DNA from: Craspedostauros australis
Taxonomy: Eukaryota
DNA length: 49,609 bases
Assembly (NCBI GenBank): GCA_030167865.1
Contig: JALAGF010005545.1
Span: forward strand, 62,001 to 111,609
Reading direction: 5' to 3'
The position numbers and the translations under genes are program-made. Below, piece after piece: positions 30,086-40,029 of the stretch (positions are counted from its first letter, which is position 1; every line of letters begins with the position of its first letter). Under the pieces are notes generated by a model, which was not told where the DNA came from, did no database searches, and was given only the letters and a program-made list of their open reading frames with translations.

Positions 30086-31441
30086 ATGAGCGATCTTCAG
30101 GAGACAGCGAACAAGCTGTATGCCGGCAAGTCGCTGGCGCCGATGGTCCGTGCATCCACAACACCCCTTCGAGCGCTGGCCTTGCACTACGGTGCCGATT
30201 TCGTGTACAGCGAGGAATTGGTGGACAGGAGCATCTCGGAGACCACAAGGGTTGTGAATGAAGAGCTCGGCACCATCGACTACGTCAAGCACAACGCCCG
30301 CATGTCCAAGAAGGCCAAGAAGCGGCTGAAGAACAACGTCAAGCCAGCGTTGATCTTGCGGATCGATCCAAAGCTCGAGACCGGCAAGTTCGTGTGCCAG
30401 CTGGGATCCGGCGAACCGGAGCTCGCTCTCGCGGCGGCCAAGCACGTGCACAAGGACGTCTCATCCATCGATATCAACATGGGATGTCCCAAGAAGTTTT
30501 CCGTCAGCGGGGGCATGGGAAGTGCCTTGCTGTCGGACCCCGACCGCGGCTGCAGGATTCTCAAGAGCCTGAGAGCCGAGCTCCCTCTCCCCATCTCCTG
30601 CAAGATCCGTCTGCTCAAGGACACCAAATCCACGGTGGAGTACGTTGACGCCATGGTCAATGCCGGCGCCAACGCGGTCGCCATCCATTCTCGTCGCGTC
30701 GGTGATGAATCGACATCACCAGCTGATTGGAATGCCCTGGAGGAGGTGTTTAGCATCATCCGGCCGAAGCATCCGACCATCCCATTGCTGATCAACGGCG
30801 ACTTCTACGACCGCAGCGAGACAGAAGACATGATATCCAAGACCGGCGCAAATGGGGTGCTGCTTGCGCGTCCCGCCCTGTACAACACGAGCATCTTCCG
30901 ACCACTGACAGAGAGGCTCGAAGACAAGACTGTGGTCGTGCAGCGATATGTGGAGCAATCCGTGCGATACGACATGAACCACAAGAATACGAAGTACGTC
31001 ATCTGCGAGATGATGAGCAACCGGCGCAATCCGAATAATCGCACATCGCAGCTGCCTCAATCCTGGCCAGGTGGTCACACGGTCGCAAAAACGTGCGACT
31101 GCCATTCATTGCAGGCCATGTGCGAGTTGTGGAACGTCAATTGGATTGCTCCGACGACTACTGCGACCATTGCGACTCCTGCAAACGGCGAAAGCACCAG
31201 CATCGGTATCAACGGCAACGACAATGACAATGACATGAGACATCACGGCAATAAAGCAGCAGCAGGAACAACAGCAACGGAGAATATGGCTGCAGGCGAG
31301 CACAAATATGATGATTCTTATTTGATTGAAAGGTTGGGAGATACGAGTACTCCGACCAAATCGCAATCGCAACCGAAGAAGAAGGCGAAAGTTCGCGAAA
31401 GTCTCAATGGTACAATGGAGTCGAACAACGAAACGACTTGA
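30086..31441 (+). CDS. DUS2: tRNA-dihydrouridine synthase, DUS2-like
   Basis: LAPMVR, YSEELVD, IDINMGCPKKFSVSGGMGSALL, CKIRL, INGD, NTKYVI. Confidence 0.9.
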   Translation: MSDLQETANKLYAGKSLAPMVRASTTPLRALALHYGADFVYSEELVDRSISETTRVVNEELGTIDYVKHNARMSKKAKKRLKNNVKPALILRIDPKLETGKFVCQLGSGEPELALAAAKHVHKDVSSIDINMGCPKKFSVSGGMGSALLSDPDRGCRILKSLRAELPLPISCKIRLLKDTKSTVEYVDAMVNAGANAVAIHSRRVGDESTSPADWNALEEVFSIIRPKHPTIPLLINGDFYDRSETEDMISKTGANGVLLARPALYNTSIFRPLTERLEDKTVVVQRYVEQSVRYDMNHKNTKYVICEMMSNRRNPNNRTSQLPQSWPGGHTVAKTCDCHSLQAMCELWNVNWIAPTTTATIATPANGESTSIGINGNDNDNDMRHHGNKAAAGTTATENMAAGEHKYDDSYLIERLGDTSTPTKSQSQPKKKAKVRESLNGTMESNNETT

Positions 31442-31575: not shown

Positions 31576-34500
31576 TTATCGAGAGTGTCGCTTCCCCCAG
31601 GTCGATGGTTCGATACGATCCTTTGGTTCCAGGATGGTGGCGTTGTTGCAATCGAAGAAGAAGCTTCCGGATTCCGCCATGGCCAGTTTCCAGTCATCGA
31701 TGCTGCCAGTATCCCACATGTGGTCATCCTCACCATCGCCAAGGTCATCGCCGTCGTTATTATCGTTGGTGTTGGTGTTGGTGTTGGCCTCTTTCACGTT
31801 GTAGGTCGCCTCCGCAACATCGTCACGGTCGTCGCGAGCACTGGCTGCATGACCATCGACCTTGTCGCCTGCATCTTTGGCTGCGTGAATCCAGGCACTG
31901 TACGTGCCAGCTGGAAACGACTCGATAGTGGAACCCATGCTGTGGATCGACGGGATGCATGGGATGTCAAGAGTGGTGTTTCCATGGTTGGCAGTGGTCT
32001 GGGTTTCGAAGCTCACTTCTTCAGGAATGTCCAAGTCTTCCTCTGAGGAATATTCGTCGTAGTCTTCCGGCATCCAGTCTTCGGGATCGATCTCGTCTTC
32101 ATCGTCAGCAACGGCGTCGTTGGCATCGTGAGTATGGTTAGCGAAGTCGGCATCATCGCGGTGGGCGCGATGATGCTTCACTTCTGGCTCAAAGTGTTGG
32201 ACATCGCCAGCGGCATGGTTGCCGCCGTTGCTGTGGTTGTGGTCTTGGTGGTGGTTGCGTGCGCCACCGTCAACACCAAAGGTTGGGGAGACGTCGGTTT
32301 GGTCTTCGGTACACACTAAGTTGGTAGACGGCGAATGGATTGCGCCATCACCGACGGTGTTGCCATCAGGATTCTCCTTGCCTTCGGGGGTCCACGGATG
32401 ACCACCCATGTCTGGATGGATAGAGAGAATGACATCCTTGGTGGGTGCGATGCCATGGGTTTCTGCTGCCTTTCCGAAATCTTCATCGCCGATGCGCGCA
32501 TGGTCGGCTTGGCCCATGAGGACATTCGGAGATCCGTAGTGATGTTGCTCGTACTGATGGTGCTCGTGGTTGGTTTCAATGTCGGGTTCACATGAGTGCA
32601 CGTGCGACAGGTCGCTGCGATCACTGCTTCCTGGAATGCAGCCAAGGGAAGTGCTGTTGTCGATATCACCACCGGAGCTGGTGTCGCCGACGGCACCGTC
32701 ACCGCGCCCGTTCTTGTGAGCATGGCTCGCGACCTTTGCCTTGATGGAAAGAAGAAGCACGATGATGCAATAGAGGAAGCTCGGACCCAGGATGAGTAGC
32801 ACCAAGGTGCTGAGGATCTCCATGGACGGGATGGTGGTGGTATCATCATCGTCATCATCATCTGCATGTTCCTCGTTATCCCGGTTCATCAACTTGGCGA
32901 GGACCCCGATCGTGGAGGCGTAGATGAGACAGACTTTGAGCAAAACATCGACCGTGTGCACCTGGAAGATAGAGGATTCGCAGCGTCTTGCGTGGTCGTC
33001 ACGCATGTGTTGCGTCTTCGATGGCCGTCGTCGGAAGGGATCACGAGATCGCTGGAAGAAGTCCGACATGATGGTTTGGACCATCAGGAAGAGGAACACC
33101 AGGAGAGGTCGTTGCTGCTGGACGAAGAACGCCACGGCGATGAGAAGCTTGCGGAGCAGGAGGTAGCCAATCCACCACCATCGCTGCTCTTGGAAAGGGC
33201 GGACGTACACCAACGCATGGAGCGAAGGAGGCGGGGGAGGATGGTAGGGGAAATCCGTGATGGAGCTGCGCGAGCCCATTGCCTCATCTTGTGCGTAGTC
33301 CTTGGACAGCCAGAGCCGGTAGGTGAAGGCGAATGGAAACACGACGCCGAAGAACAGGAAGCCGATGACGCCAAGAACGGATGCGAGGCCGCCCAGGAAG
33401 TCGTCGGATCGACGGCAGAACCAATCGACGCCATCCCGGCTGTCGAAGATACTGGAATGCACCGACGAGCACCCGATGAGCTCCATGCTGGTCAGCACGA
33501 TCTTCTCGAAGGCCAGGAACGTCACGAACCCAGCGACATGGCGGACCATGTTTCTGTGCTTGCGCCACGTTCGATTATCCAGTCTACCGATGACGTACAT
33601 AAACCGAAGAATGCACCATGGCAAAACGAAGAGCATCACGGGGAGCCCGAGAGCGATGGTCAGCTCGGTCCGTGGATCGATGTTTCCGAGACATTGGATT
33701 GGTGCGATGATGCCGATGTCGACGGCAAAGATGCTCAAAAACTCGAAAGCCCAGGCGAGCGGGGAGGACCATTCCATGTGGACCATGCCCGCGAGGAACA
33801 TGAGCCGCAGGTATTCCGTCGTGACGAAGAAGATGGCCGTGCTGGAGGGGTCGTTGGTCGCGAAGTACCAAACCACGAAGAGGAGGTAGGCGAGCAAACC
33901 AACAGAGCGGATGGCGACGGTGGATGTGGCGGGGCACTCGCGGCAAGTTCCATGGATGTTGTAGAAGTCAACGCCGCATTGGAATACTTCGGAGCCGAGC
34001 GGGCTGGATCCGATTCCAGCGTCAAGTTCTGGCGTCGTCGTTGGGGCACTTGATTCGGTTGGTTGGGCGGTTGCTTGATTGGAGGCGGCAGGGCCGTCGG
34101 TTTCTTCTTGTCCATCATTCTCATCGTTATCACTCTTATCGCCATGACCTGCGAGATGGGCTTGAACCACAATTTCAGTGAGTGTTGATGTTGGCGCAGG
34201 TGTTGGCATGGACGTCGGGATTTCACTTGGGGCGATTGTGTCAGGGTGCATCGATGGTGCTGGCTGTGAGACAGGGTGAGGCGTTTGGTCCTTACCTGAT
34301 GCCGGCGTTGGCGACGGCGCCAACGTGGGAGGTGGAAGGCAGAAGACATCTCGTCCGCTGACGTAGACAGAAGTGGCCCCTTCACCATCGTAGTGGCTTG
34401 AATCGCAGGTGTTGCAGTACGTGGCTCGAGGGATGTTGGAGTAGGTTCCTGGTGGGCAGACGCGGCACTCGGTGCTTCCGATGTTGTCGCCGTAGCTTCC

Positions 34501-34776
34501 TGGCGGGCAGCTGTCGCAAATGGCAGCATCCTGAATGTTGGAGTACGTTCCGAAGTCACAACGGTACCGAAGGTTGTCGAAGGGAGGGCTGAAGAAGCCG
34601 GCTCCCACGTCGATGCACTCACGCAGACCGGAGGAACTCACGAGACCGTTGCGGTTCCAGCACCCCGCAGGGCAAGGGTTGACGGATGGGCTGCACACGC
34701 CCAGCACCGGCGCGGCATTGCTGACGATGAACATCAAGCAAAGGATGACGGTGAGAAAGGGCGTGACGATGATCAT
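31576..34776 (-). CDS. Signal peptide + Cys-rich GCC2/GCC3 (ephrin-receptor-like) repeats + multi-pass TM region + acidic tail
   Basis: CDSCPPGSYG, CRVCPPGTYS repeats; Pro/Thr stalk; several hydrophobic helices; WWWIGYLLLRKLLI motif. Confidence 0.8.
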   Translation of the reverse strand: MIIVTPFLTVILCLMFIVSNAAPVLGVCSPSVNPCPAGCWNRNGLVSSSGLRECIDVGAGFFSPPFDNLRYRCDFGTYSNIQDAAICDSCPPGSYGDNIGSTECRVCPPGTYSNIPRATYCNTCDSSHYDGEGATSVYVSGRDVFCLPPPTLAPSPTPASGKDQTPHPVSQPAPSMHPDTIAPSEIPTSMPTPAPTSTLTEIVVQAHLAGHGDKSDNDENDGQEETDGPAASNQATAQPTESSAPTTTPELDAGIGSSPLGSEVFQCGVDFYNIHGTCRECPATSTVAIRSVGLLAYLLFVVWYFATNDPSSTAIFFVTTEYLRLMFLAGMVHMEWSSPLAWAFEFLSIFAVDIGIIAPIQCLGNIDPRTELTIALGLPVMLFVLPWCILRFMYVIGRLDNRTWRKHRNMVRHVAGFVTFLAFEKIVLTSMELIGCSSVHSSIFDSRDGVDWFCRRSDDFLGGLASVLGVIGFLFFGVVFPFAFTYRLWLSKDYAQDEAMGSRSSITDFPYHPPPPPSLHALVYVRPFQEQRWWWIGYLLLRKLLIAVAFFVQQQRPLLVFLFLMVQTIMSDFFQRSRDPFRRRPSKTQHMRDDHARRCESSIFQVHTVDVLLKVCLIYASTIGVLAKLMNRDNEEHADDDDDDDTTTIPSMEILSTLVLLILGPSFLYCIIVLLLSIKAKVASHAHKNGRGDGAVGDTSSGGDIDNSTSLGCIPGSSDRSDLSHVHSCEPDIETNHEHHQYEQHHYGSPNVLMGQADHARIGDEDFGKAAETHGIAPTKDVILSIHPDMGGHPWTPEGKENPDGNTVGDGAIHSPSTNLVCTEDQTDVSPTFGVDGGARNHHQDHNHSNGGNHAAGDVQHFEPEVKHHRAHRDDADFANHTHDANDAVADDEDEIDPEDWMPEDYDEYSSEEDLDIPEEVSFETQTTANHGNTTLDIPCIPSIHSMGSTIESFPAGTYSAWIHAAKDAGDKVDGHAASARDDRDDVAEATYNVKEANTNTNTNDNNDGDDLGDGEDDHMWDTGSIDDWKLAMAESGSFFFDCNNATILEPKDRIEPSTWGKRHSR

Positions 34777-35407
34777 CGCGCTAGTAGGCACAGATGTTGC
34801 TGTTGTCGTTCTTGTTGTTGTTGGTGACGATGGACACCAATTCGGCGATTGTTGCAGTCTTGTGTGGATTGTGATGTGTGGCAATCTCGTTTTATGTGAA
34901 CACAGTAAAGCATTTGTGAAATGAAACACTCATGACACGCATTTAGCAGGAGAGTCGTTGTAACTGCGTTGTTTTTGCGCGATGAACACAATCACAAGGC
35001 AGCATCAACAGGCACAGCAACAACAACAGTCGCTGAACATGAGGGAACCCATCAACGAGAAGAAACGGTCGTTTTGCGGTGCGGTTTGTGAACCTGTTGG
35101 TATCAATTTTTTGAACGGTGTAAGTCGTGAATGACACCCTCGACCAGTTCGCATAATCAGCCAGACGAACACTCGGGCAAAATGCTCACGAAGTAGTCGT
35201 AGAGTAGACTACAGTAGCACAGCCCGTTGTAGAGCAGAGCACTCATCCGCGTGCGGAGACCGTTCTCTCGTGAGACTGTGTCAGAGTGACATAGTAGTCT
35301 TCTATCCATTCTCTGTCTCAATAACATGTTCATTTATTCGTACATATTGGTACCCAAGACCTCGCACATCCACAAAACTCATCACACTTCCATCAAAGCG
35401 GCACGCG

Positions 35408-35481
35408 ATCATGTGATCGTCAGCGCTGCAGCTGTACCCGCACGTGTGCGGGACAGTCGCAGGCGTCATTCTCACCGTGAT
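35408..35481 (-). promoter_or_regulatory. Candidate SECIS element (non-canonical, no apical AA)
   Basis: Minus strand: helix I (AUCAcgGUGA/UCACaUGAU), core AUGAC..UGAC, ~12-bp helix II, apical mini-stem CCCGCA-CACG-UGCGGG; core lies 100 nt after the stop. Confidence 0.75.
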
Positions 35482-35569
35482 GTCGCCTCCACCTCGTGGA
35501 TTCTGTTGATTCAATTGCGATGGTGCGAGGGCCTTGCTTGGCTGTCTTCGTCCATCCGCAGCGTCGCAA

Positions 35570-36454
35570 TCAGTTTGCACCAAAAAAGTTGGGCAAGGAG
35601 AACTGCGGGAAGGCGGGCTTCTTCTCGGCCTGTTCGTTGGCGATGTTCCACACCTGCTCAATGTCAGGATGATCGCCAGGAAGCTGATCGCTCCACCGGT
35701 AGACGATGTCGTTGCCGTTGACGACGAAGGTGCCTCCGAGACGCAGGACGCCGACGGGAACATCTCCAAACTTCATGTCCTTGGGGATGGGCGAGACTTT
35801 GGAAACGGAGGTGAGGTAGTTCCACCAACCCTTGGCACCGAGATCCGGTGCCGTCATGCGCTTCGTTGCCGCTTTCATTACCTCCGAGTCCTGCTCGTCG
35901 ATGCGCGAGAATCCGGCGGCCTCGTAGGCGTCAAAGTCATAGCCGTCGACAAAGACGGAATCCCTTGGGATATCCGGGTTTTTCTCCAGGAAGACCGAGA
36001 GCTTGTCGGCGTCTCCGATGGAAATGAAGATGGGCCCCGCGACAGAATCCTGCGGGTTGGCGCGCTGGAGCTCACACCAAGAGTTGGCGTAAGTCCAGCA
36101 GTAGGGTCATCCGAGATGCCTCAGGAGGACGACGACGGAAGCGCCCTTGCCCATGAGGTCACCGAGGGACACCTTGTTGCCATCTACGCCCGTGAGTTGG
36201 ACGGAGCGAAGGCCAGCCGCCGTCACGCCCTCTGGAATCACATCCGTCGGCATATCGCATGGTGTGCTGGTTGCGGTGGAAGGAAGAGCCGAAACGGACA
36301 TGGATGTGGCAATGAATGCAATCGAAGTTGGTGTTGCCATCTGAGAATTTCTCGAGGTGGTCAGCGATGCTGGCTGGAAGGCCGATACGCCAGCGACACC
36401 AGCGGCGACTGTCGCCAGACCCAGTAGGGCGACGCTCTTATTGTTGAACATCAT
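35570..36454 (-). CDS. Plastid-targeted AhpC/TSA (peroxiredoxin-like 2, SelU/SelL-related) selenoprotein; Sec116 from TGA at 36109-36107
   Basis: Reading through TGA gives one 294-aa frame: VSAF presequence, VVVLLRHLG-U-PYC, FISIG, LGGTFVVNGNDIVYRWSDQLPGDHP; SECIS-like element in the 3'UTR. Confidence 0.88.
36063..36100 (-). promoter_or_regulatory. SRE-like hairpin just 3' of the Sec codon
   Basis: GCUGGA-CUUACGCCAA-CUC-UUGGUGUGAG-C-UCCAGC: 16 bp plus a closing U-G, starting 6-7 nt after the UGA. Confidence 0.65.
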
Positions 36455-37077
36455 TGTCGATGTTATCTGTGAGTTGTGATCCTTATCAATGTTGTGGGTT
36501 GCACCAATTGCGTTGGTTGCAACGACAACAACAGCAACAGCAACAACGACATCATCATCATCATGTTGCGCTGTTTCTCGTATTGTTCTCGTGTTCCGTC
36601 ACGTTTCGCGATTTCGCGTCGGAATTGTGTGAGTCAGTATTCGTGTTTTGTCATTCCCACAAACGTCAGTCACGAAACAAACGAATCGTGAACACAGAAC
36701 CAATTGATTACTACGAGTCCAGTACACTATCGACTCATGCGAATGATTTGGCCCGCAATCAATGTTCTTGTTTGGCGCGCTGATTTGTGCTGATGGGCAT
36801 TGATGCGATGACCAACCACGAAATCGAAGGAGACAAAGGAGAAACAAAACAAACGACCGAACCGGCCAACACAGATCAACAGAACAAACCAAGGACACAA
36901 TCAAATCCGTCGATCTTGTCGCCTCGCCCGTGCGGGTCCTCTCGTCGTCTCATCGTCTCATCGTCTGATCAGCTGCCAACACAGACACCATCGCAATCAC
37001 GGCGTGCACAATATTCGTATCAACACTGTGGCATCAAGCAAAGGGCGACAGGGAAAGCGAGAGAGTGATCGTCGAAG

Positions 37078-40029
37078 ATGCTGTCAGATTCCGAAGACGA
37101 TGTGCCGCTGGAGGCTTTATCATCAAGGAAGAAGAGACGTTCCTCCTCATCAAAGGCGACCAAGATCAGGGCTCCCAAGCTGCCGGAAGAGGTGGTTTCC
37201 GCAGTCTCGCCGGGCACGAAACGCAAGCGCGATCGCGATGTCGACACTGGCTCTGCGAAGAAGTCAAAGGTCAAGGTGGAGGAGAGCGCCACGAATGGCA
37301 ATGGCAGGAAGAAGGGCCTCAAGGAGCTGGACAAGGCGGAGCGGCTGCAATTCGCCATGCAGGCCTTCTTGTGGTGGAACGCGCAGAATCCCCCGGAGGG
37401 TCATCAATGGGTCACGATGGAACACAGCGGCGTCGCCTTTCCGGAACCCTACCAACCGCATGGTGTCAAGATGATCTACGATGGCGACGAAGTGGAGCTC
37501 ACGCCTGTGCAAGAGGAAGCGTAAGTCCGGCCATCTCATCCGTTCTTTTCTGCATCATGCAGATCAGACAGAATGCAATGTGAAGGAGGCTTTGGTCGCA
37601 GAACACAGCCGCGTTTGGTAGAAGACATGGAACTCACGGTGTTTCACCATTTCCGTGTCTCATTCATACGAATATGTCTCGTGCAAGACCTTGTGCCTGA
37701 CTTCCACCATCAATCTAAATGCCCTTTCTTCTCTTCGTTTCATTGTTTGGGTTTCGTTCCACCTTCTTCCCTCGTCACTCCTGCGACCACAGCGCCACAT
37801 TCTTCGCCGCGACCGATCCGGACGGAATGCATCTAGGCAACCCCAAGACGGCCAAGATCTTCATCAAGAACTTCTTCGCCGACTTCAAGACGGTGCTGGG
37901 TCGCAAACACAATATCAAGGATTTCAAAAAGTGCGACTTCGAACCAATCCGCAACCACCTCAAGGAACAGAAGATCATCAAGAAGGCGATCAGCGACAAG
38001 GAACGCAAGGCGAACAAGGAAGATCGCAACCAGGCCGTCATGAAGTTTGGATTTGCGATCGTCGATGGTCATTTGGAGAAGGTTGGCAACTACAACATGG
38101 TACGTGCATGCAGACACACTTGCTAATTTGGTTGCTGTGTCCGTGCATGGCAGAAACACAAAATGATTGAGTGACATGTTGTTGCTCTTATCCGCGGGTG
38201 TACGAGTACTCATCTATGCCATCAACGTCATTGCACCGCCGCATCAACACGTGCGATTATCAATTGCGCATGCACCGCCATGTTGTACAGGAACCGCCTG
38301 GTACTTTCCGTGGACGTGGAGCGCATCCAAAGATGGGAAAGCTCAAAGCGCGGGTGTTGCCGGAGCAAGTGTCCTTGAACTTGTCCGAGAACGCGGCGGT
38401 TCCAATCTGTCACGTGCCTGGTCACTGCTGGAGCGACGTGCGTCACGACCCTCGCAGCCAGTGGCTGGCAACATGGAAGGAGAACATCAACAACCAGTCC
38501 AAGTACATGCAGCTCGCTGCGCAGTCATCGTTCAAGGGCAAGTCCGACAGATCCAAGTACAACAAGGCGGCGCGTCTGTGCGAAAAGATCGTGGCAATCC
38601 GCAAGGCCTACAAGCGGGCCCTCAAATCCAAAGACGACGAGACCAAGCAGCTTGCAACCGCAACCTGGGTCATCGATCGCCTCGCTCTGCGTGTGGGTGG
38701 AGAGAAGGATACGGACGAGGAGGCCGACACGGTTGGCTGCTGTTCGCTGCGTGTGGAGCATTTTCACTTCGACCCCAACAGCGAGGGCGGCGACAACAAG
38801 GAGATCGAACTGGAGTTCCTTGGTAAGGATTCCATGCTCTTCAAGCAGACCATCAACTTTGGCTCTGACCTGTACAACGAGAACAATGGAATGGGCATCC
38901 AGGTGTTCAAGAACTTGCAGAAACTTTGCTCCAAGAAGTCCAAGTCAGAACAAGTCTTCGACGCCATCAACCCCTCCATGCTGAATAATCATTTGAAGCA
39001 GTTCATGGAGGGATTGTCGGCCAAGGTCTTTCGTACGTACAACGCATCGAAGACACTGCAGGACGAGCTGCGGAAGAAGGAGGAAACAGGCAGCTGGAAC
39101 AACCTCACAGCGGCTCAGAAGGTGGTCGAATACAACAACGCAAATCGCGAAGTCGCCATCCTGTGTAACCATCAGCGTACGGTGAGCAAGGCGCAGGAGA
39201 CCCAGCTGGAATCGCTGGGGACGAAGCTCACCACCTTGTCGAACCAACGCAAGGAGCTGAAGCGATTCCTGAAGCTTCTGAATGCCGGCAAGTCCGAGAA
39301 GATCCGATTGAAGAAGGACGAGAAAAAGCTGGCCGAAGCCGTCGCCAAGGCGCTGGAGAAAGCGAAGAAGATGAAGGACAAGGCCAAGACCAACGAGGAG
39401 AAGATCAAGGCGACCGAATTCGACGAGAAGGCGAAACTCAAACGCAAGGAGCTGACGGAGCTCAAGTTCAGCCAGGCGCATCTCTGGGAGAAGACACCCA
39501 CATCAGACCAGGTGATTCGCAAGCTCGAGAATTGGAAGAAGAAGATAACGAAGTCGGAGCTTGACCTCAAGCACAAGGATGACAACAAGGAGGTGGCGTT
39601 GGGAACCTCGAAGGTGAGTTGAGCGTGAAATGGCATGACTTGATTTGATTTGATAACTTCGATGTTTGTGTGATGTTTGCAACTTGGTGTGGCCGTGGTG
39701 GATTGGACATGTCTTCTTGTGGCGGAGTGCAATGCAACGCAGCATGATCTGTCTTGCTTTACTCGGCAGTCCAACTGTACTTGAATGGCCGTCCGCAATC
39801 ATTACATCTCACACAACCAGCTTCACTCAACACTTCCACAATTGTGACCTGTCATCGACAATCCGGACGACAGATCAATTACATGGACCCTCGGATATCT
39901 GTCGCTTGGTGTAAGCGCAACGAAGTGCCAATCGAGAAAGTGTTTTCGAAGACCTTACGGGATAAGTTCAATTGGGCCATGGCCGTCGAGCCAGACTGGG
40001 AATTCAATGCCAAGATCGCCAACGAATAG
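37078..40029 (+). CDS. TOP1: DNA topoisomerase I (type IB); exons 37078-37520, 37793-38099, 38291-39613, 39874-40029
   Basis: [49 protein letters not shown], catalytic SK|INYMDPR; all introns GT-AG and in frame. Confidence 0.96.

What the first reader, a model, noticed from the sequence alone, without database searches (positions are those of the whole stretch)
35570..36454. Hidden plastid-targeted selenoprotein with a UxxC motif
Seen: the ORF ending VVVLLRHLG* (TGA at 36109-36107) continues in frame without stops (PYCWTYANSW..FISIGDADKL..) into the 35570-35878 ORF, giving 294 aa. TGA occupies the first Cys position of a CxxC. The N-terminus is a signal peptide followed by VSAF and a Ser/Thr-rich transit peptide. 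Known: AhpC/TSA peroxiredoxin-like proteins carry RxxGCxxC; SelU has UxxC and SelL UxxU; diatoms have Sec machinery. Inference: a nucleus-encoded selenoenzyme imported into a complex plastid, which gene callers would split, truncate or bridge with a false intron.
Basis: partly seen in the sequence, partly recalled or inferred. Interest (0 to 1): 0.92.

Follow-up and report, generated by a model that had tools for sequence, protein, structure and literature searches.

The report
Diatom SelU-like selenoprotein gene, probably plastid-targeted
The apparent stop codon inside this diatom gene most likely encodes selenocysteine at the active site of a thioredoxin-fold redox enzyme that appears to be sent to the plastid, and although real it belongs to a selenoprotein family already known from algae.

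Summary
On the minus strand, 36454..35570 is one 294-codon frame with a single internal TGA (36109-36107, codon 116) in the motif RHLG-U-PYC-W.

The TGA is not an error:
- 77 of 80 homologous environmental loci carry an in-frame TGA at the same column, one has TGT, and two are unresolved.
- Database relatives have Cys there.
- A covariance model built only from the homologues' 3'UTR hairpins (AUGA...UGA core) puts its best hit in the whole window at 35481-35408, 89 nt after the stop. The score is weak: 16.2 bits, E 0.15.
- Rfam's SECIS models find nothing.

The protein is a thioredoxin-fold member of the PF13911 (SelU/PRXL2) superfamily. U116 and C119 align with C44 and C47 of human prostamide/PGF synthase.

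The N-terminus has a hydrophobic signal-like segment, VSA|F, then a Ser/Thr-rich stretch with no acidic residues. The Phe is kept in 23 of 24 full-length homologues. Plastid import is therefore likely but untested.

Most public gene models are wrong: 231 of 289 begin after the TGA.

Verdict: a real selenoprotein and a new member of a known kind. Interest is moderate to low.

The parts
35570..36454 (-). Complete coding sequence: 294 codons plus the terminal TGA stop (35572-35570), with no intron
   Evidence: Searches show the frame. One search shows a 1163-nt contig of run X1 colinear with 35316-36478, with 0 differences and no gap or joint.
36107..36109 (-). In-frame TGA, codon 116: proposed selenocysteine, first position of U-P-Y-C
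   Evidence: The same column is TGA in 77/80 loci and TGT in 1. It is C or W in database proteins. It aligns with C44 of human PGFS.
36098..36100 (-). Codon 119, Cys: proposed resolving partner of U116
   Evidence: It aligns with C47 of human PGFS. It is kept as C in every aligned protein and locus that has the motif, apart from 2-3 aberrant database models.
36380..36454 (-). Codons 1-25: signal-peptide-like segment (K6, hydrophobic core, G-V-S-A before the proposed cleavage)
   Evidence: The best 12-residue window has mean Kyte-Doolittle hydropathy 2.12. SignalP was not available.
36260..36379 (-). Codons 26-65: transit-peptide-like stretch beginning with Phe26
   Evidence: 17 of 40 residues are Ser/Thr, 0 Asp/Glu, 1 Arg. 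Phe is at the same aligned place in 23/24 full-length homologues and Leu in 1. The stretch is disordered in the AF2 model.
35600..36241 (-). Codons about 72-285: thioredoxin-fold catalytic domain (PF13911-like)
   Evidence: 10-residue pLDDT block means are 90-98 for residues 71-280. Strand 105-113 is followed by helix 117-132, with U116 at the helix N-terminus; top Foldseek hit is human PGFS 9usa, E 2.2e-7, TM (target) 0.76.
35408..35481 (-). Proposed SECIS element in the 3'UTR: AUGA at 35469-35466, UGA at 35422-35420, helix 2 plus apical hairpin between them, short helix 1 (GUGA/UCAC) outside
   Evidence: MFE -46.3 kcal/mol, z -2.47, with the AUGA and UGA facing each other in an internal loop; this is the best hit of model R1 in the whole window (16.2 bits, E 0.15); the same model hits 51 homologue loci, all on the gene strand, 14-293 nt after the stop.
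35316..36478 (-). Extent of a public-run contig identical to the window. It could be the mRNA, but the run type is only guessed.
   Evidence: table 8. AATAAA lies at 35338-35333. The run is labelled 'RNA? (a guess)', so no transcript ends are claimed.

Best explanation
This is an intron-less nuclear gene of a diatom for a 294-residue selenoprotein of the PF13911 (AhpC-TSA_2; SelU/PRXL2) branch of the thioredoxin fold.

Recoding (inferred from anatomy): UGA116 is read as selenocysteine on cytosolic, ER-bound ribosomes. A SECIS hairpin in the 3'UTR directs this. Its AUGA/UGA kink-turn core lies 100 nt after the stop and 640 nt after the Sec codon.

Targeting (inferred from sequence rules only): the N-terminal 25 residues act as a signal peptide cleaved after VSA. 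The exposed Phe26 and the hydroxyl-rich, acid-free stretch up to about residue 65-70 act as the transit peptide of a bipartite presequence. This would carry the protein across the four membranes into the plastid stroma.

Chemistry (inferred from fold and from the nearest solved enzyme): the mature domain of about 225 residues carries U116-P-Y-C119 at the N-terminus of helix 1. The selenolate attacks a peroxide, endoperoxide or disulfide substrate. C119 resolves the intermediate as a selenenylsulfide, and a thioredoxin or glutathione system re-reduces it.

My odds: genuine Sec codon about 0.93; PF13911/SelU-like superfamily about 0.9; plastid stroma about 0.7; thiol-dependent peroxide or disulfide reductase about 0.5.
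For: Shown:
- There is a single in-frame TGA in an otherwise open 294-codon frame.
- TGA occupies the same column in 77/80 homologous loci and TGT in 1. The frame stays open 131-188 codons beyond it.
- 36 database relatives besides the window protein have CxxC at that column and 12 have WxxC.
- ATGA-N-helix-TGA hairpins occur in 37 of 74 3'UTRs, against 2/370 mononucleotide shuffles and 0/74 reverse complements.
- All 9 helix-2 pairs show compensatory changes. The set was chosen for a closed helix, so this is partly by construction.
- Model R1, built without the window, places its best window hit at 35481-35408 on the minus strand.
- R1 gives 51 hits in 155 kb of homologue loci. All lie on the gene strand; the 50 with a computed offset lie 14-293 nt after the stop, and L045 about 77 nt by my reading. 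27 of the 51 are outside the training set.
- The one Cys-form locus (L055) has no hit in 1497 nt downstream.
- PF13911 is matched by 24/34 family members, best E 4.2e-9.
- A profile search of the PDB finds human PGFS/PRXL2B (E 0.16), with its C44/C47 opposite U116/C119.
- The AF2 model has mean pLDDT 81.8, and 200 of its 295 residues reach 90 or more. Its top Foldseek hit is PGFS 9usa, E 2.2e-7.
- For the Cys homologue P0004, the nearest ESM-Atlas clusters are plant PF13911 proteins (0.93) and PRXL2C (0.91).
- Presequence features are given.
- The neighbours are eukaryotic nuclear genes: topoisomerase I, Dus, and an Ephrin_rec_like membrane protein.

From the literature (passages only): T. pseudonana has tRNA-Sec and 16 selenoproteins, including two SelU (PMC2375036). 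Diatoms have 20-44 selenoprotein genes (PMC7539508).
Against: - Rfam 15 finds no SECIS at E<=10 in the window region or in 20 homologue loci.
- The window hairpin scores only 16.2 bits, E 0.15.
- It failed my own strict rule of three uninterrupted closing pairs.
- It lacks the A-rich apical motif. Among 31 homologue hairpins, AA starts at offsets 13-16 from AUGA 18 times (overlaps counted). The window has C,T,G,T there and a single A at offset 12.
- The window protein itself does not reach PF13911 at E<=1. It gives only sub-threshold PF00578 (16.5 bits against a 26-bit cut-off) and PF08534 hits.
- No genome is held for this window, so tRNA-Sec, SBP2, eEFSec, PSTK, SepSecS and SPS2 could not be checked.
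- The gene's own stop is also TGA, about 100 nt before the SECIS core, so some read-through cannot be excluded.
- No signal-peptide or ASAFind program was run, and there is no localisation or activity data.
Confidence: 0.85

Rival explanations
1. The TGA is an assembly or sequencing error for TGC/TGT, or the gene is a pseudogene. The protein would then be an ordinary Cys enzyme or dead.
For: Cys forms exist among close relatives, for example the Cylindrotheca protein P0004 at 63% identity. The window's SECIS score is weak.
Against: TGA is at the same column in 77/80 independent environmental loci. A public-run contig reproduces the window over 35316-36478 with 0 differences, though it may not be independent of the assembly. 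The frame is intact on both sides, and a family-typical hairpin lies in the 3'UTR.
Confidence: 0.02
2. The UGA terminates translation, or two separate products are made: a 115-residue N-terminal piece and a separately started C-terminal protein, as most public gene models imply.
For: 231 of 289 database models begin after the U column, and 158 of them start at positions 117-140. MMETSP ORF calls label such pieces 'complete'.
Against: The split would cut a thioredoxin fold between strand 1 and the active-site helix. It would also separate the targeting presequence from the domain. Flanking residues on both sides of the TGA are conserved in one frame in 77 loci. Cys homologues are single proteins. 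The short models are what ORF finders produce at any Sec codon.
Confidence: 0.03
3. It is a genuine selenoprotein, but it is not delivered to the plastid stroma. It stays in the ER or secretory pathway, or in the periplastidial compartment.
For: Only sequence rules support plastid import. SignalP and ASAFind were not run. A signal peptide alone sends proteins to the ER, and one homologue has Leu instead of Phe at +1.
Against: Phe follows the hydrophobic segment in 23/24 full-length homologues. The next 40 residues are 42% Ser/Thr with no acidic residue, against 10% Ser/Thr and 30 acidic residues in the mature part. These are the features PMC4329603 lists for stromal import (passages). The nearest named clusters for a Cys homologue are plant PF13911 proteins of 250-270 residues. 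That these are plastid proteins is my recollection and was not tested.
Confidence: 0.2
4. It is a canonical peroxiredoxin (AhpC/TSA, PrxQ/BCP-like) with Sec as the peroxidatic residue, rather than a PRXL2/SelU-type CxxC enzyme.
For: The window protein's only Pfam hits are PF00578 (E 0.0086) and PF08534 (E 0.022). Foldseek lists Bcp4, PrxQ and Tpx just below PGFS.
Against: Both Pfam hits are below their gathering scores. The peroxiredoxin motif, as I recall it, has Pro at -7 and Thr/Ser at -3 from the peroxidatic Cys; here those positions are V109 and H113. More family members match PF13911 (24/34) than PF00578 (8/34). PGFS is the best hit by both sequence profile and structure.
Confidence: 0.1

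Closest known systems
Selenoprotein U / SELENOU (PRXL2 family, Pfam PF13911 AhpC-TSA_2)
   Same: Thioredoxin fold with Sec at the first position of UxxC. Sec and Cys forms interchange between lineages. The family is reported in diatoms (two SelU in T. pseudonana, PMC2375036) and is among the most widespread algal selenoproteins (PMC7539508). PF13911 is hit by 24/34 members of this family.
   Different: The window protein itself does not reach PF13911. The profile match to the one solved family member is weak (E 0.16). It carries a presequence of about 65-70 residues.
Human prostamide/prostaglandin F synthase (PRXL2B), PDB 9us9 / 9usa
   Same: It is the best structural match (E 2.2e-7, TM on target 0.76, 21% identity) and the best PDB sequence-profile match. 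Its C44-x-x-C47 lies opposite U116-x-x-C119.
   Different: It is a cytosolic animal Cys enzyme of 198 residues with low sequence similarity. No substrate is known for the diatom protein.
Plant PF13911 'AhpC/TSA antioxidant enzyme' / thioredoxin-domain proteins (Streptophyta clusters in the ESM Atlas)
   Same: These are the nearest named clusters for the Cys homologue P0004 (score 0.93, 175-177 of 256 features shared). They are of similar length, 252-271 aa.
   Different: Land plants have no selenoproteins, so these are Cys forms.
AhpC_b, the UxxC selenoprotein family reported from Thalassiosira oceanica (Jiang et al. 2020, PMC7539508)
   Same: A diatom selenoprotein with an AhpC/TSA-type domain and a UxxC motif (passage).
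   Different: AhpC_b is described as found in one diatom with only prokaryotic Cys homologues. The present family is widespread in diatoms and other eukaryotic algae. No sequence was available for comparison.
Chloroplast-targeted Sec-type glutathione peroxidases of Chlamydomonas (PMC3095285)
   Same: A precedent for nucleus-encoded selenoproteins predicted to enter a plastid (passages).
   Different: A different fold family (GPx). The plastid is primary, with a simple transit peptide rather than a bipartite signal across four membranes.

Membership tests
Eukaryotic selenoprotein gene | In-frame UGA aligned with Cys (or UGA) in homologues, with conserved coding sequence on both sides | tested here: met
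   TGA in 77/80 loci, TGT in 1; CxxC in 36 database relatives besides the window protein; the frame stays open 131-188 codons beyond the TGA.
Eukaryotic selenoprotein gene | SECIS element in the 3'UTR: stem-loop with an AUGA / GA non-Watson-Crick core | tested here: met
   AUGA 35469-35466 and UGA 35422-35420 face each other between two helices. This is the best hit of the homologue-derived model R1 in the window, but it is weak (16.2 bits, E 0.15); the same model gives 51 hits in homologue 3'UTRs and none elsewhere.
Eukaryotic selenoprotein gene | Recognition by the curated SECIS covariance models (Rfam) | tested here: not met
   no SECIS family at E<=10 in window 34500-36700 or in 20 homologue loci.
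Eukaryotic selenoprotein gene | Unpaired AA (AAR) motif in the apical loop or bulge of the SECIS | tested here: inconclusive
   the homologue hairpins are A-rich at offsets 13-16. The window has CTGT there, followed by CC. CC-type SECIS elements are known only from my recollection and were not checked.
Eukaryotic selenoprotein gene | Sec machinery in the same genome (tRNA-Sec, SBP2, eEFSec, PSTK, SepSecS, SPS2) | not testable with these tools
   no genome is held for this window. The machinery is documented for another diatom in PMC2375036.
PF13911 AhpC-TSA_2 (SelU / PRXL2) | Significant match to the Pfam model | tested here: inconclusive
   the window protein has no PF13911 hit at E<=1; 24 of 34 aligned family members hit it, best E 4.2e-9.
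PF13911 AhpC-TSA_2 (SelU / PRXL2) | Thioredoxin fold with C/U-x-x-C at the N-terminus of the first helix, matching a solved family member | tested here: met
   strand 105-113 is followed by helix 117-132; top Foldseek hit is PGFS (9usa). C44 and C47 align with U116 and C119.
PF13911 AhpC-TSA_2 (SelU / PRXL2) | Orthology to the published diatom or vertebrate SelU genes | not tested
Peroxiredoxin (PF00578 AhpC/TSA) | Pfam match above the gathering score, and the Pro(-7)/Thr-Ser(-3) motif before the peroxidatic residue (motif recalled) | tested here: not met
   16.5 bits against a cut-off of 26. V109 and H113 occupy -7 and -3.
Diatom plastid-targeted protein (bipartite presequence, ASAFAP motif) | N-terminal signal peptide | tested here: inconclusive
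   a basic residue is followed by a 17-residue hydrophobic core (mean hydropathy 2.12) and small residues at -3 and -1. No SignalP run was possible.
Diatom plastid-targeted protein (bipartite presequence, ASAFAP motif) | [quoted passage not shown] | tested here: met
   VSA|F26. F in 23 and L in 1 of 24 full-length homologues at the aligned place.
Diatom plastid-targeted protein (bipartite presequence, ASAFAP motif) | Transit-peptide-like region: hydroxylated residues, few acidic residues, net positive charge | tested here: met
   residues 26-65 have 17/40 Ser+Thr, 0 Asp/Glu and 1 Arg. The ASAFind score itself was not computed because the matrix is in a supplement.
Diatom plastid-targeted protein (bipartite presequence, ASAFAP motif) | Experimental localisation in the plastid | not testable with these tools
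   No data are available.

The most novel reading that the evidence does not exclude
The RHLG-U-PYCW clade may be a lineage of its own: the selenium-using counterpart of the plant plastid PF13911 Cys proteins, imported across four membranes into the diatom plastid stroma. It would then be the first documented selenoprotein of a complex plastid. That would tie part of diatom plastid peroxide or oxylipin redox chemistry to selenium supply. Its SECIS would also be a divergent type that current curated models miss, with a conserved GUGA-AUGA-CG ... CUGA core and, in this gene, no apical AA.
Probability: 0.3. Interest if true: 0.55.

Novelty: new member of a known kind. Interest (0 to 1): 0.3.

Why it matters
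For annotation, this gene and hundreds of relatives are truncated, bridged by false introns or mistranslated in public protein sets. Of 289 stored relatives, 231 begin after the Sec codon. Plastid proteome and redox inventories of diatoms therefore miss the active site and the targeting signal of this enzyme.

For biology, if plastid import is confirmed, it gives a concrete handle on why many diatoms need selenium, namely a selenium-dependent redox enzyme inside the plastid. The family-specific SECIS pattern that Rfam misses could improve selenoprotein finding in stramenopiles.

It does not change what is known in principle. Diatom selenoproteomes and SelU-type UxxC proteins are established.

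Tried and rejected
- Rfam SECIS search of the window region and of 20 homologue loci gave nothing at E<=10. I judge this a sensitivity limit, because a family-built model finds the element in 51 loci.
- Whole-genome check of the Sec machinery: no genome is held.
- RNA evidence: no RNA holder is listed. The only holder, X1, is 'RNA? (a guess)'. Its 1163-nt contig equals window 35316-36478 with no gap. It may be DNA, or the very sample behind the assembly, so I draw no conclusion on expression, splicing or transcript ends from it.
A natural Cys homologue was used instead.
- Supplements of PMC2375036, which hold the T. pseudonana SelU sequences, were closed. The question whether this clade is the catalogued diatom SelU stays open.
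- The second-best R1 hit in the window (35119-35165 on the plus strand, 12.2 bits) was rejected as noise. It lacks the 3' UGA in the alignment shown, and no plus-strand gene ends upstream of it.
- Earlier scan notes: there are none for this genome. A word search returned only bacterial UxxC cases that do not bear on this gene.
- A canonical peroxiredoxin reading was rejected (see rivals).
- Searches for a described plastid-targeted diatom selenoprotein found none in the CC-licensed PMC and bioRxiv library. In one search, only one of the 15 listed papers contains 'selenoprotein', once, and it is a general review. In one search, 4 papers match and 3 are listed, all on Chlamydomonas. In one search, Jiang 2020 has 0 occurrences of plastid, chloroplast or signal peptide.
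Full report
OBSERVATION. On the minus strand, the frame that starts at ATG 36454 runs to a stop at 35572-35570. It has one internal stop, TGA at 36109-36107. Read with TGA=U it gives 294 residues, with U116 in ...VVVLLRHLG-U-PYC-WTYANSW.... The coordinates and the residue strings in the finding are correct.

THE TGA IS CONSERVED. A first protein search found 63 relatives. The named ones are all diatoms: Cylindrotheca, Fistulifera, Attheya, Cyclotella, Pseudo-nitzschia and Nitzschia.
- In the alignment of 34 of them (A1), the U column holds C, or W, or is skipped by the gene model. Alternatively, the model starts just after it.
- I fetched 80 homologous loci from metagenome and metatranscriptome contigs. 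A motif scan found an in-frame TGA at this column in 76 and TGT in one, L055.
- L045 also has TGA, in a variant motif that my regex had missed. L057 and L059 are genomic loci in which the exon carrying the site is cut off by intron-like sequence, so they stay unresolved.
- The tally is therefore 77 TGA, 1 Cys and 2 unresolved, out of 80.
- After the TGA the frame stays open for 131-188 more codons.
Since the corresponding DNA shows TGA, I read W as TGA translated as Trp by a gene caller.
This is the classical Sec/Cys signature. Assembly error or pseudogene is very unlikely.

THE RECODING SIGNAL. Rfam finds no SECIS in window 34500-36700, or in 20 homologue loci, at E<=10.
- By eye and by folding, the 3'UTR holds a hairpin in which AUGA (35469-35466) and UGA (35422-35420) face each other in an internal loop. 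A short outer helix (GUGA/UCAC) and a long inner helix with an apical hairpin flank the loop. MFE is -46.3 kcal/mol and z is -2.47.
- A scan of my own shows the same arrangement in many homologue 3'UTRs, with a recurring context gtGA-AUGA-CG...(A/G)C-UGA.
- Under a strict rule (ATGA, one free base, a helix closed by at least three uninterrupted pairs, then TGA), 37 of 74 UTRs of at least 120 nt have it. Controls gave 2 of 370 mononucleotide shuffles and 0 of 74 reverse complements.
- The window's own hairpin is among the 37 UTRs that fail this strict rule, because a bulge follows its second closing pair.
- I aligned 24 distinct homologue hairpins without the window (A2). RNAalifold finds nine helix-2 pairs, all with compensatory changes. 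The set was selected for a closed helix, so this is partly circular.
- I built covariance model R1 from the 24 hairpins. Searched with filters off over all 49,609 bases and both strands, R1 puts its best hit at 35481-35408 on the minus strand, 89 nt after the stop. The score is modest: 16.2 bits, E 0.15.
- That the top hit of about 99 kb falls on the right strand inside the 3'UTR would happen by chance in roughly 0.3% of cases. This figure is my estimate, not a tool result.
- Over the 80 loci (155 kb, both strands), R1 gives 51 hits at E<=1, all on the gene strand. The 50 with a computed offset lie 14-293 nt after the stop, and L045 lies about 77 nt after it by my reading. 27 of the 51 are loci that were not in the training set, though some are near-duplicates of training loci.
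- 29 loci have no hit. These include three with under 100 nt of UTR held, a GC-rich group whose candidates start with GUGA instead of AUGA, and the single Cys-form locus L055, which has 1497 nt downstream.
- Weak points for the window element are the low score and the missing apical A-rich motif. Homologues favour A at offsets 14 and 16 from the AUGA, and AA starts at offsets 13-16 18 times among 31 hairpins (overlaps counted). The window has C,T,G,T there, followed by CC.

WHAT THE PROTEIN IS. The window protein alone gives only sub-threshold Pfam hits: PF00578 at E 0.0086 and 16.5 bits against a cut-off of 26, and PF08534 at E 0.022.
- 24 of 34 family members match PF13911 (AhpC-TSA_2), best E 4.2e-9. 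Eight match PF00578.
- A profile of A1 against PDB sequences finds human prostamide/prostaglandin F synthase (PRXL2B, 9us9) as the best match. The match is weak (E 0.16), but ...LRRFG-C44-VV-C47-RW... lies opposite ...LRHLG-U-PY-C-WS....
- An AlphaFold2 model built on A1 has mean pLDDT 81.8. Residues 1-70 are disordered and residues about 71-280 are confident. Strand 105-113 leads into helix 117-132, so U116 sits at the helix N-terminus, as in CxxC thioredoxin-fold enzymes.
- Foldseek against the PDB ranks human PGFS first (9usa, E 2.2e-7, TM on target 0.76, 21% identity). Bcp4, Sco, Tpx and PrxQ-type proteins follow.
For the natural Cys homologue P0004 it lists plant PF13911 'AhpC/TSA antioxidant enzyme' and thioredoxin-domain clusters (0.93), a haptophyte-containing cluster (0.91) and PRXL2C (0.91).
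- The peroxiredoxin motif, as I recall it, has Pro at -7 and Thr/Ser at -3. It is absent here: V109 and H113 occupy those positions.
- A full HMMER scan of 1.84 billion cluster representatives finds 582 at E<=0.001 and 82 at E<=1e-30. Most matches begin just after the Sec column.

TARGETING. Residues 1-25 are Met-Met-Phe-Asn-Asn-Lys, then a 17-residue hydrophobic core, then G-V-S-A. Phe26 follows (mean hydropathy 2.12).
- Residues 26-65 are 42% Ser+Thr with no acidic residue and one Arg. The mature part is 10% Ser+Thr with 30 acidic residues.
- In A1, 24 members have a hydrophobic N-terminus. 23 of them have Phe at the aligned position after it and one has Leu.
- Passages of PMC4329603 give the rule for diatoms: a signal peptide, F/W/Y/L at +1 of its cleavage site, and a hydroxyl-rich, acid-poor, net-positive transit peptide.
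- All three sequence features are present. SignalP and ASAFind could not be run, and there are no localisation data. I put stromal targeting at about 0.7.

CONTEXT. The flanking genes are eukaryotic nuclear genes:
- an Ephrin_rec_like Cys-rich membrane protein at 34776-31576 on the minus strand;
- a split topoisomerase I gene from 37078 on the plus strand;
- a dihydrouridine synthase gene at about 30086-31441 on the plus strand.
A contig of public run X1 equals window 35316-36478 with no difference, gap or joint. The run type is only guessed and it may not be independent of the assembly, so I use it only as a reproduction of the sequence.

HOW IT MOST LIKELY WORKS. What is shown is the conserved TGA, the conserved 3'UTR hairpin, the fold and the presequence features. 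The rest is inferred:
- SBP2, eEFSec and tRNA-Sec decode UGA116 under the direction of the 3'UTR element.
- The nascent chain enters the ER lumen through its signal peptide, which is cleaved after VSA.
- The Phe-led transit peptide carries the protein into the stroma.
- The mature enzyme cycles between a selenolate/thiol state and a U116-C119 selenenylsulfide. It reduces a peroxide, endoperoxide or disulfide substrate and is recharged by thioredoxin or glutathione, by analogy with PRXL2B. That PRXL2B is thioredoxin-dependent is recalled, not tested here.

COMPARISON AND NOVELTY.
- Passages of Lobanov et al. 2007 (PMC2375036) report tRNA-Sec and 16 selenoproteins in Thalassiosira pseudonana. 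[quoted passage not shown]
- Passages of Jiang et al. 2020 (PMC7539508) report 20-44 selenoprotein genes per diatom. They place SELENOU among the four most widespread algal selenoproteins and describe a UxxC 'AhpC_b' family from T. oceanica. The paper's main text does not contain the words plastid, chloroplast or signal peptide.
- Mariotti et al. 2012 (PMC3316567; passages) describe the vertebrate SelU1-3 family.
- Chloroplast-targeted Sec-GPx enzymes are described for Chlamydomonas (PMC3095285; passages).
- Castellano et al. 2004, the original SelU paper, is recalled only.
The statement that this clade is the catalogued diatom SelU is therefore likely (my estimate about 0.7) but unproven. Either way the gene is a member of a known kind of selenoprotein in a group known for large selenoproteomes. 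The under-described aspects are the probable complex-plastid location and the SECIS variant that curated models miss.

ANNOTATION CONSEQUENCE. All 289 stored database relatives align to the window protein. Only 58 alignments span the Sec column. The other 231 begin after it, and 158 of those have their first residue projected at positions 117-140. Named genome models from Fistulifera, Cyclotella and Pseudo-nitzschia, and a model from Attheya, skip the site. None of the listed relatives carries a selenoprotein name.

VERDICT. The gene is a genuine but ordinary selenoprotein gene. Novelty: new member of a known kind. Interest: 0.3.

Noticed in passing
window 36259-36257 (minus strand; codon 66, Cys) and column of A1: A third cysteine (C66, in the context T-P-C-D-M-P) sits at the start of the mature domain. 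It recurs as P/V-C-x-x-P in most full-length homologues of alignment A1. It could be a second resolving or regulatory thiol. The model is of low confidence there (pLDDT about 56).
   Followed up: no
window 35572-35570 (minus strand): The gene's own stop codon is also TGA, about 100 nt upstream of the proposed SECIS core. Most homologues end in TAA or TAG, and TGA is mainly seen in the GC-rich group. Read-through would add 66 codons, up to the TGA inside the hairpin (my reading). Whether any occurs is unknown.
   Followed up: no
L064-L079 (metagenome loci): A GC-rich subgroup with the motif LLRHLG-U-PF/YCW mostly has 3'UTR hairpins that start with GUGA rather than AUGA. The ATGA-trained model misses most of them. 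A G before the SECIS core is what PMC2375036 reports for Ostreococcus (passage), so the family probably extends to prasinophyte green algae. The organisms were not identified.
   Followed up: partly
database relatives P0017, P0024, P0027, P0036, P0041, P0042, P0064-P0072, P0148-P0150; locus L055: A sister group has Cys forms with G-C-(T/S/F)-(W/N/H)-C in place of G-U-P-Y-C. The one such locus fetched (L055, TGT) has no SECIS-model hit downstream. These look like Cys paralogues living beside the Sec clade in diatoms.
   Followed up: partly
window 36515-36565 (both strands): A trinucleotide-repeat tract (ATG/GTT/GCT units on the minus strand) lies just upstream of the gene's 5' end. It draws a spurious match from a second contig of run X1 and a weak archaeal RNase P hit in Rfam.
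   Followed up: no
window 37078-39622 (plus strand): The divergently oriented neighbour is a eukaryotic DNA topoisomerase I gene split over at least two ORFs (Topoisom_I_N at 37078-37521; Topoisom_I_N, Topoisom_I and Topo_C_assoc at 38216-39619). It therefore contains at least one intron, whereas the selenoprotein gene has none.
   Followed up: partly
window 31576-34776 (minus strand): The downstream neighbour is a 1066-residue ORF with one Ephrin_rec_like Cys-rich repeat (E 4.2e-8), hydrophobic stretches and long acidic, His-rich tails. It is otherwise unassigned.
   Followed up: no
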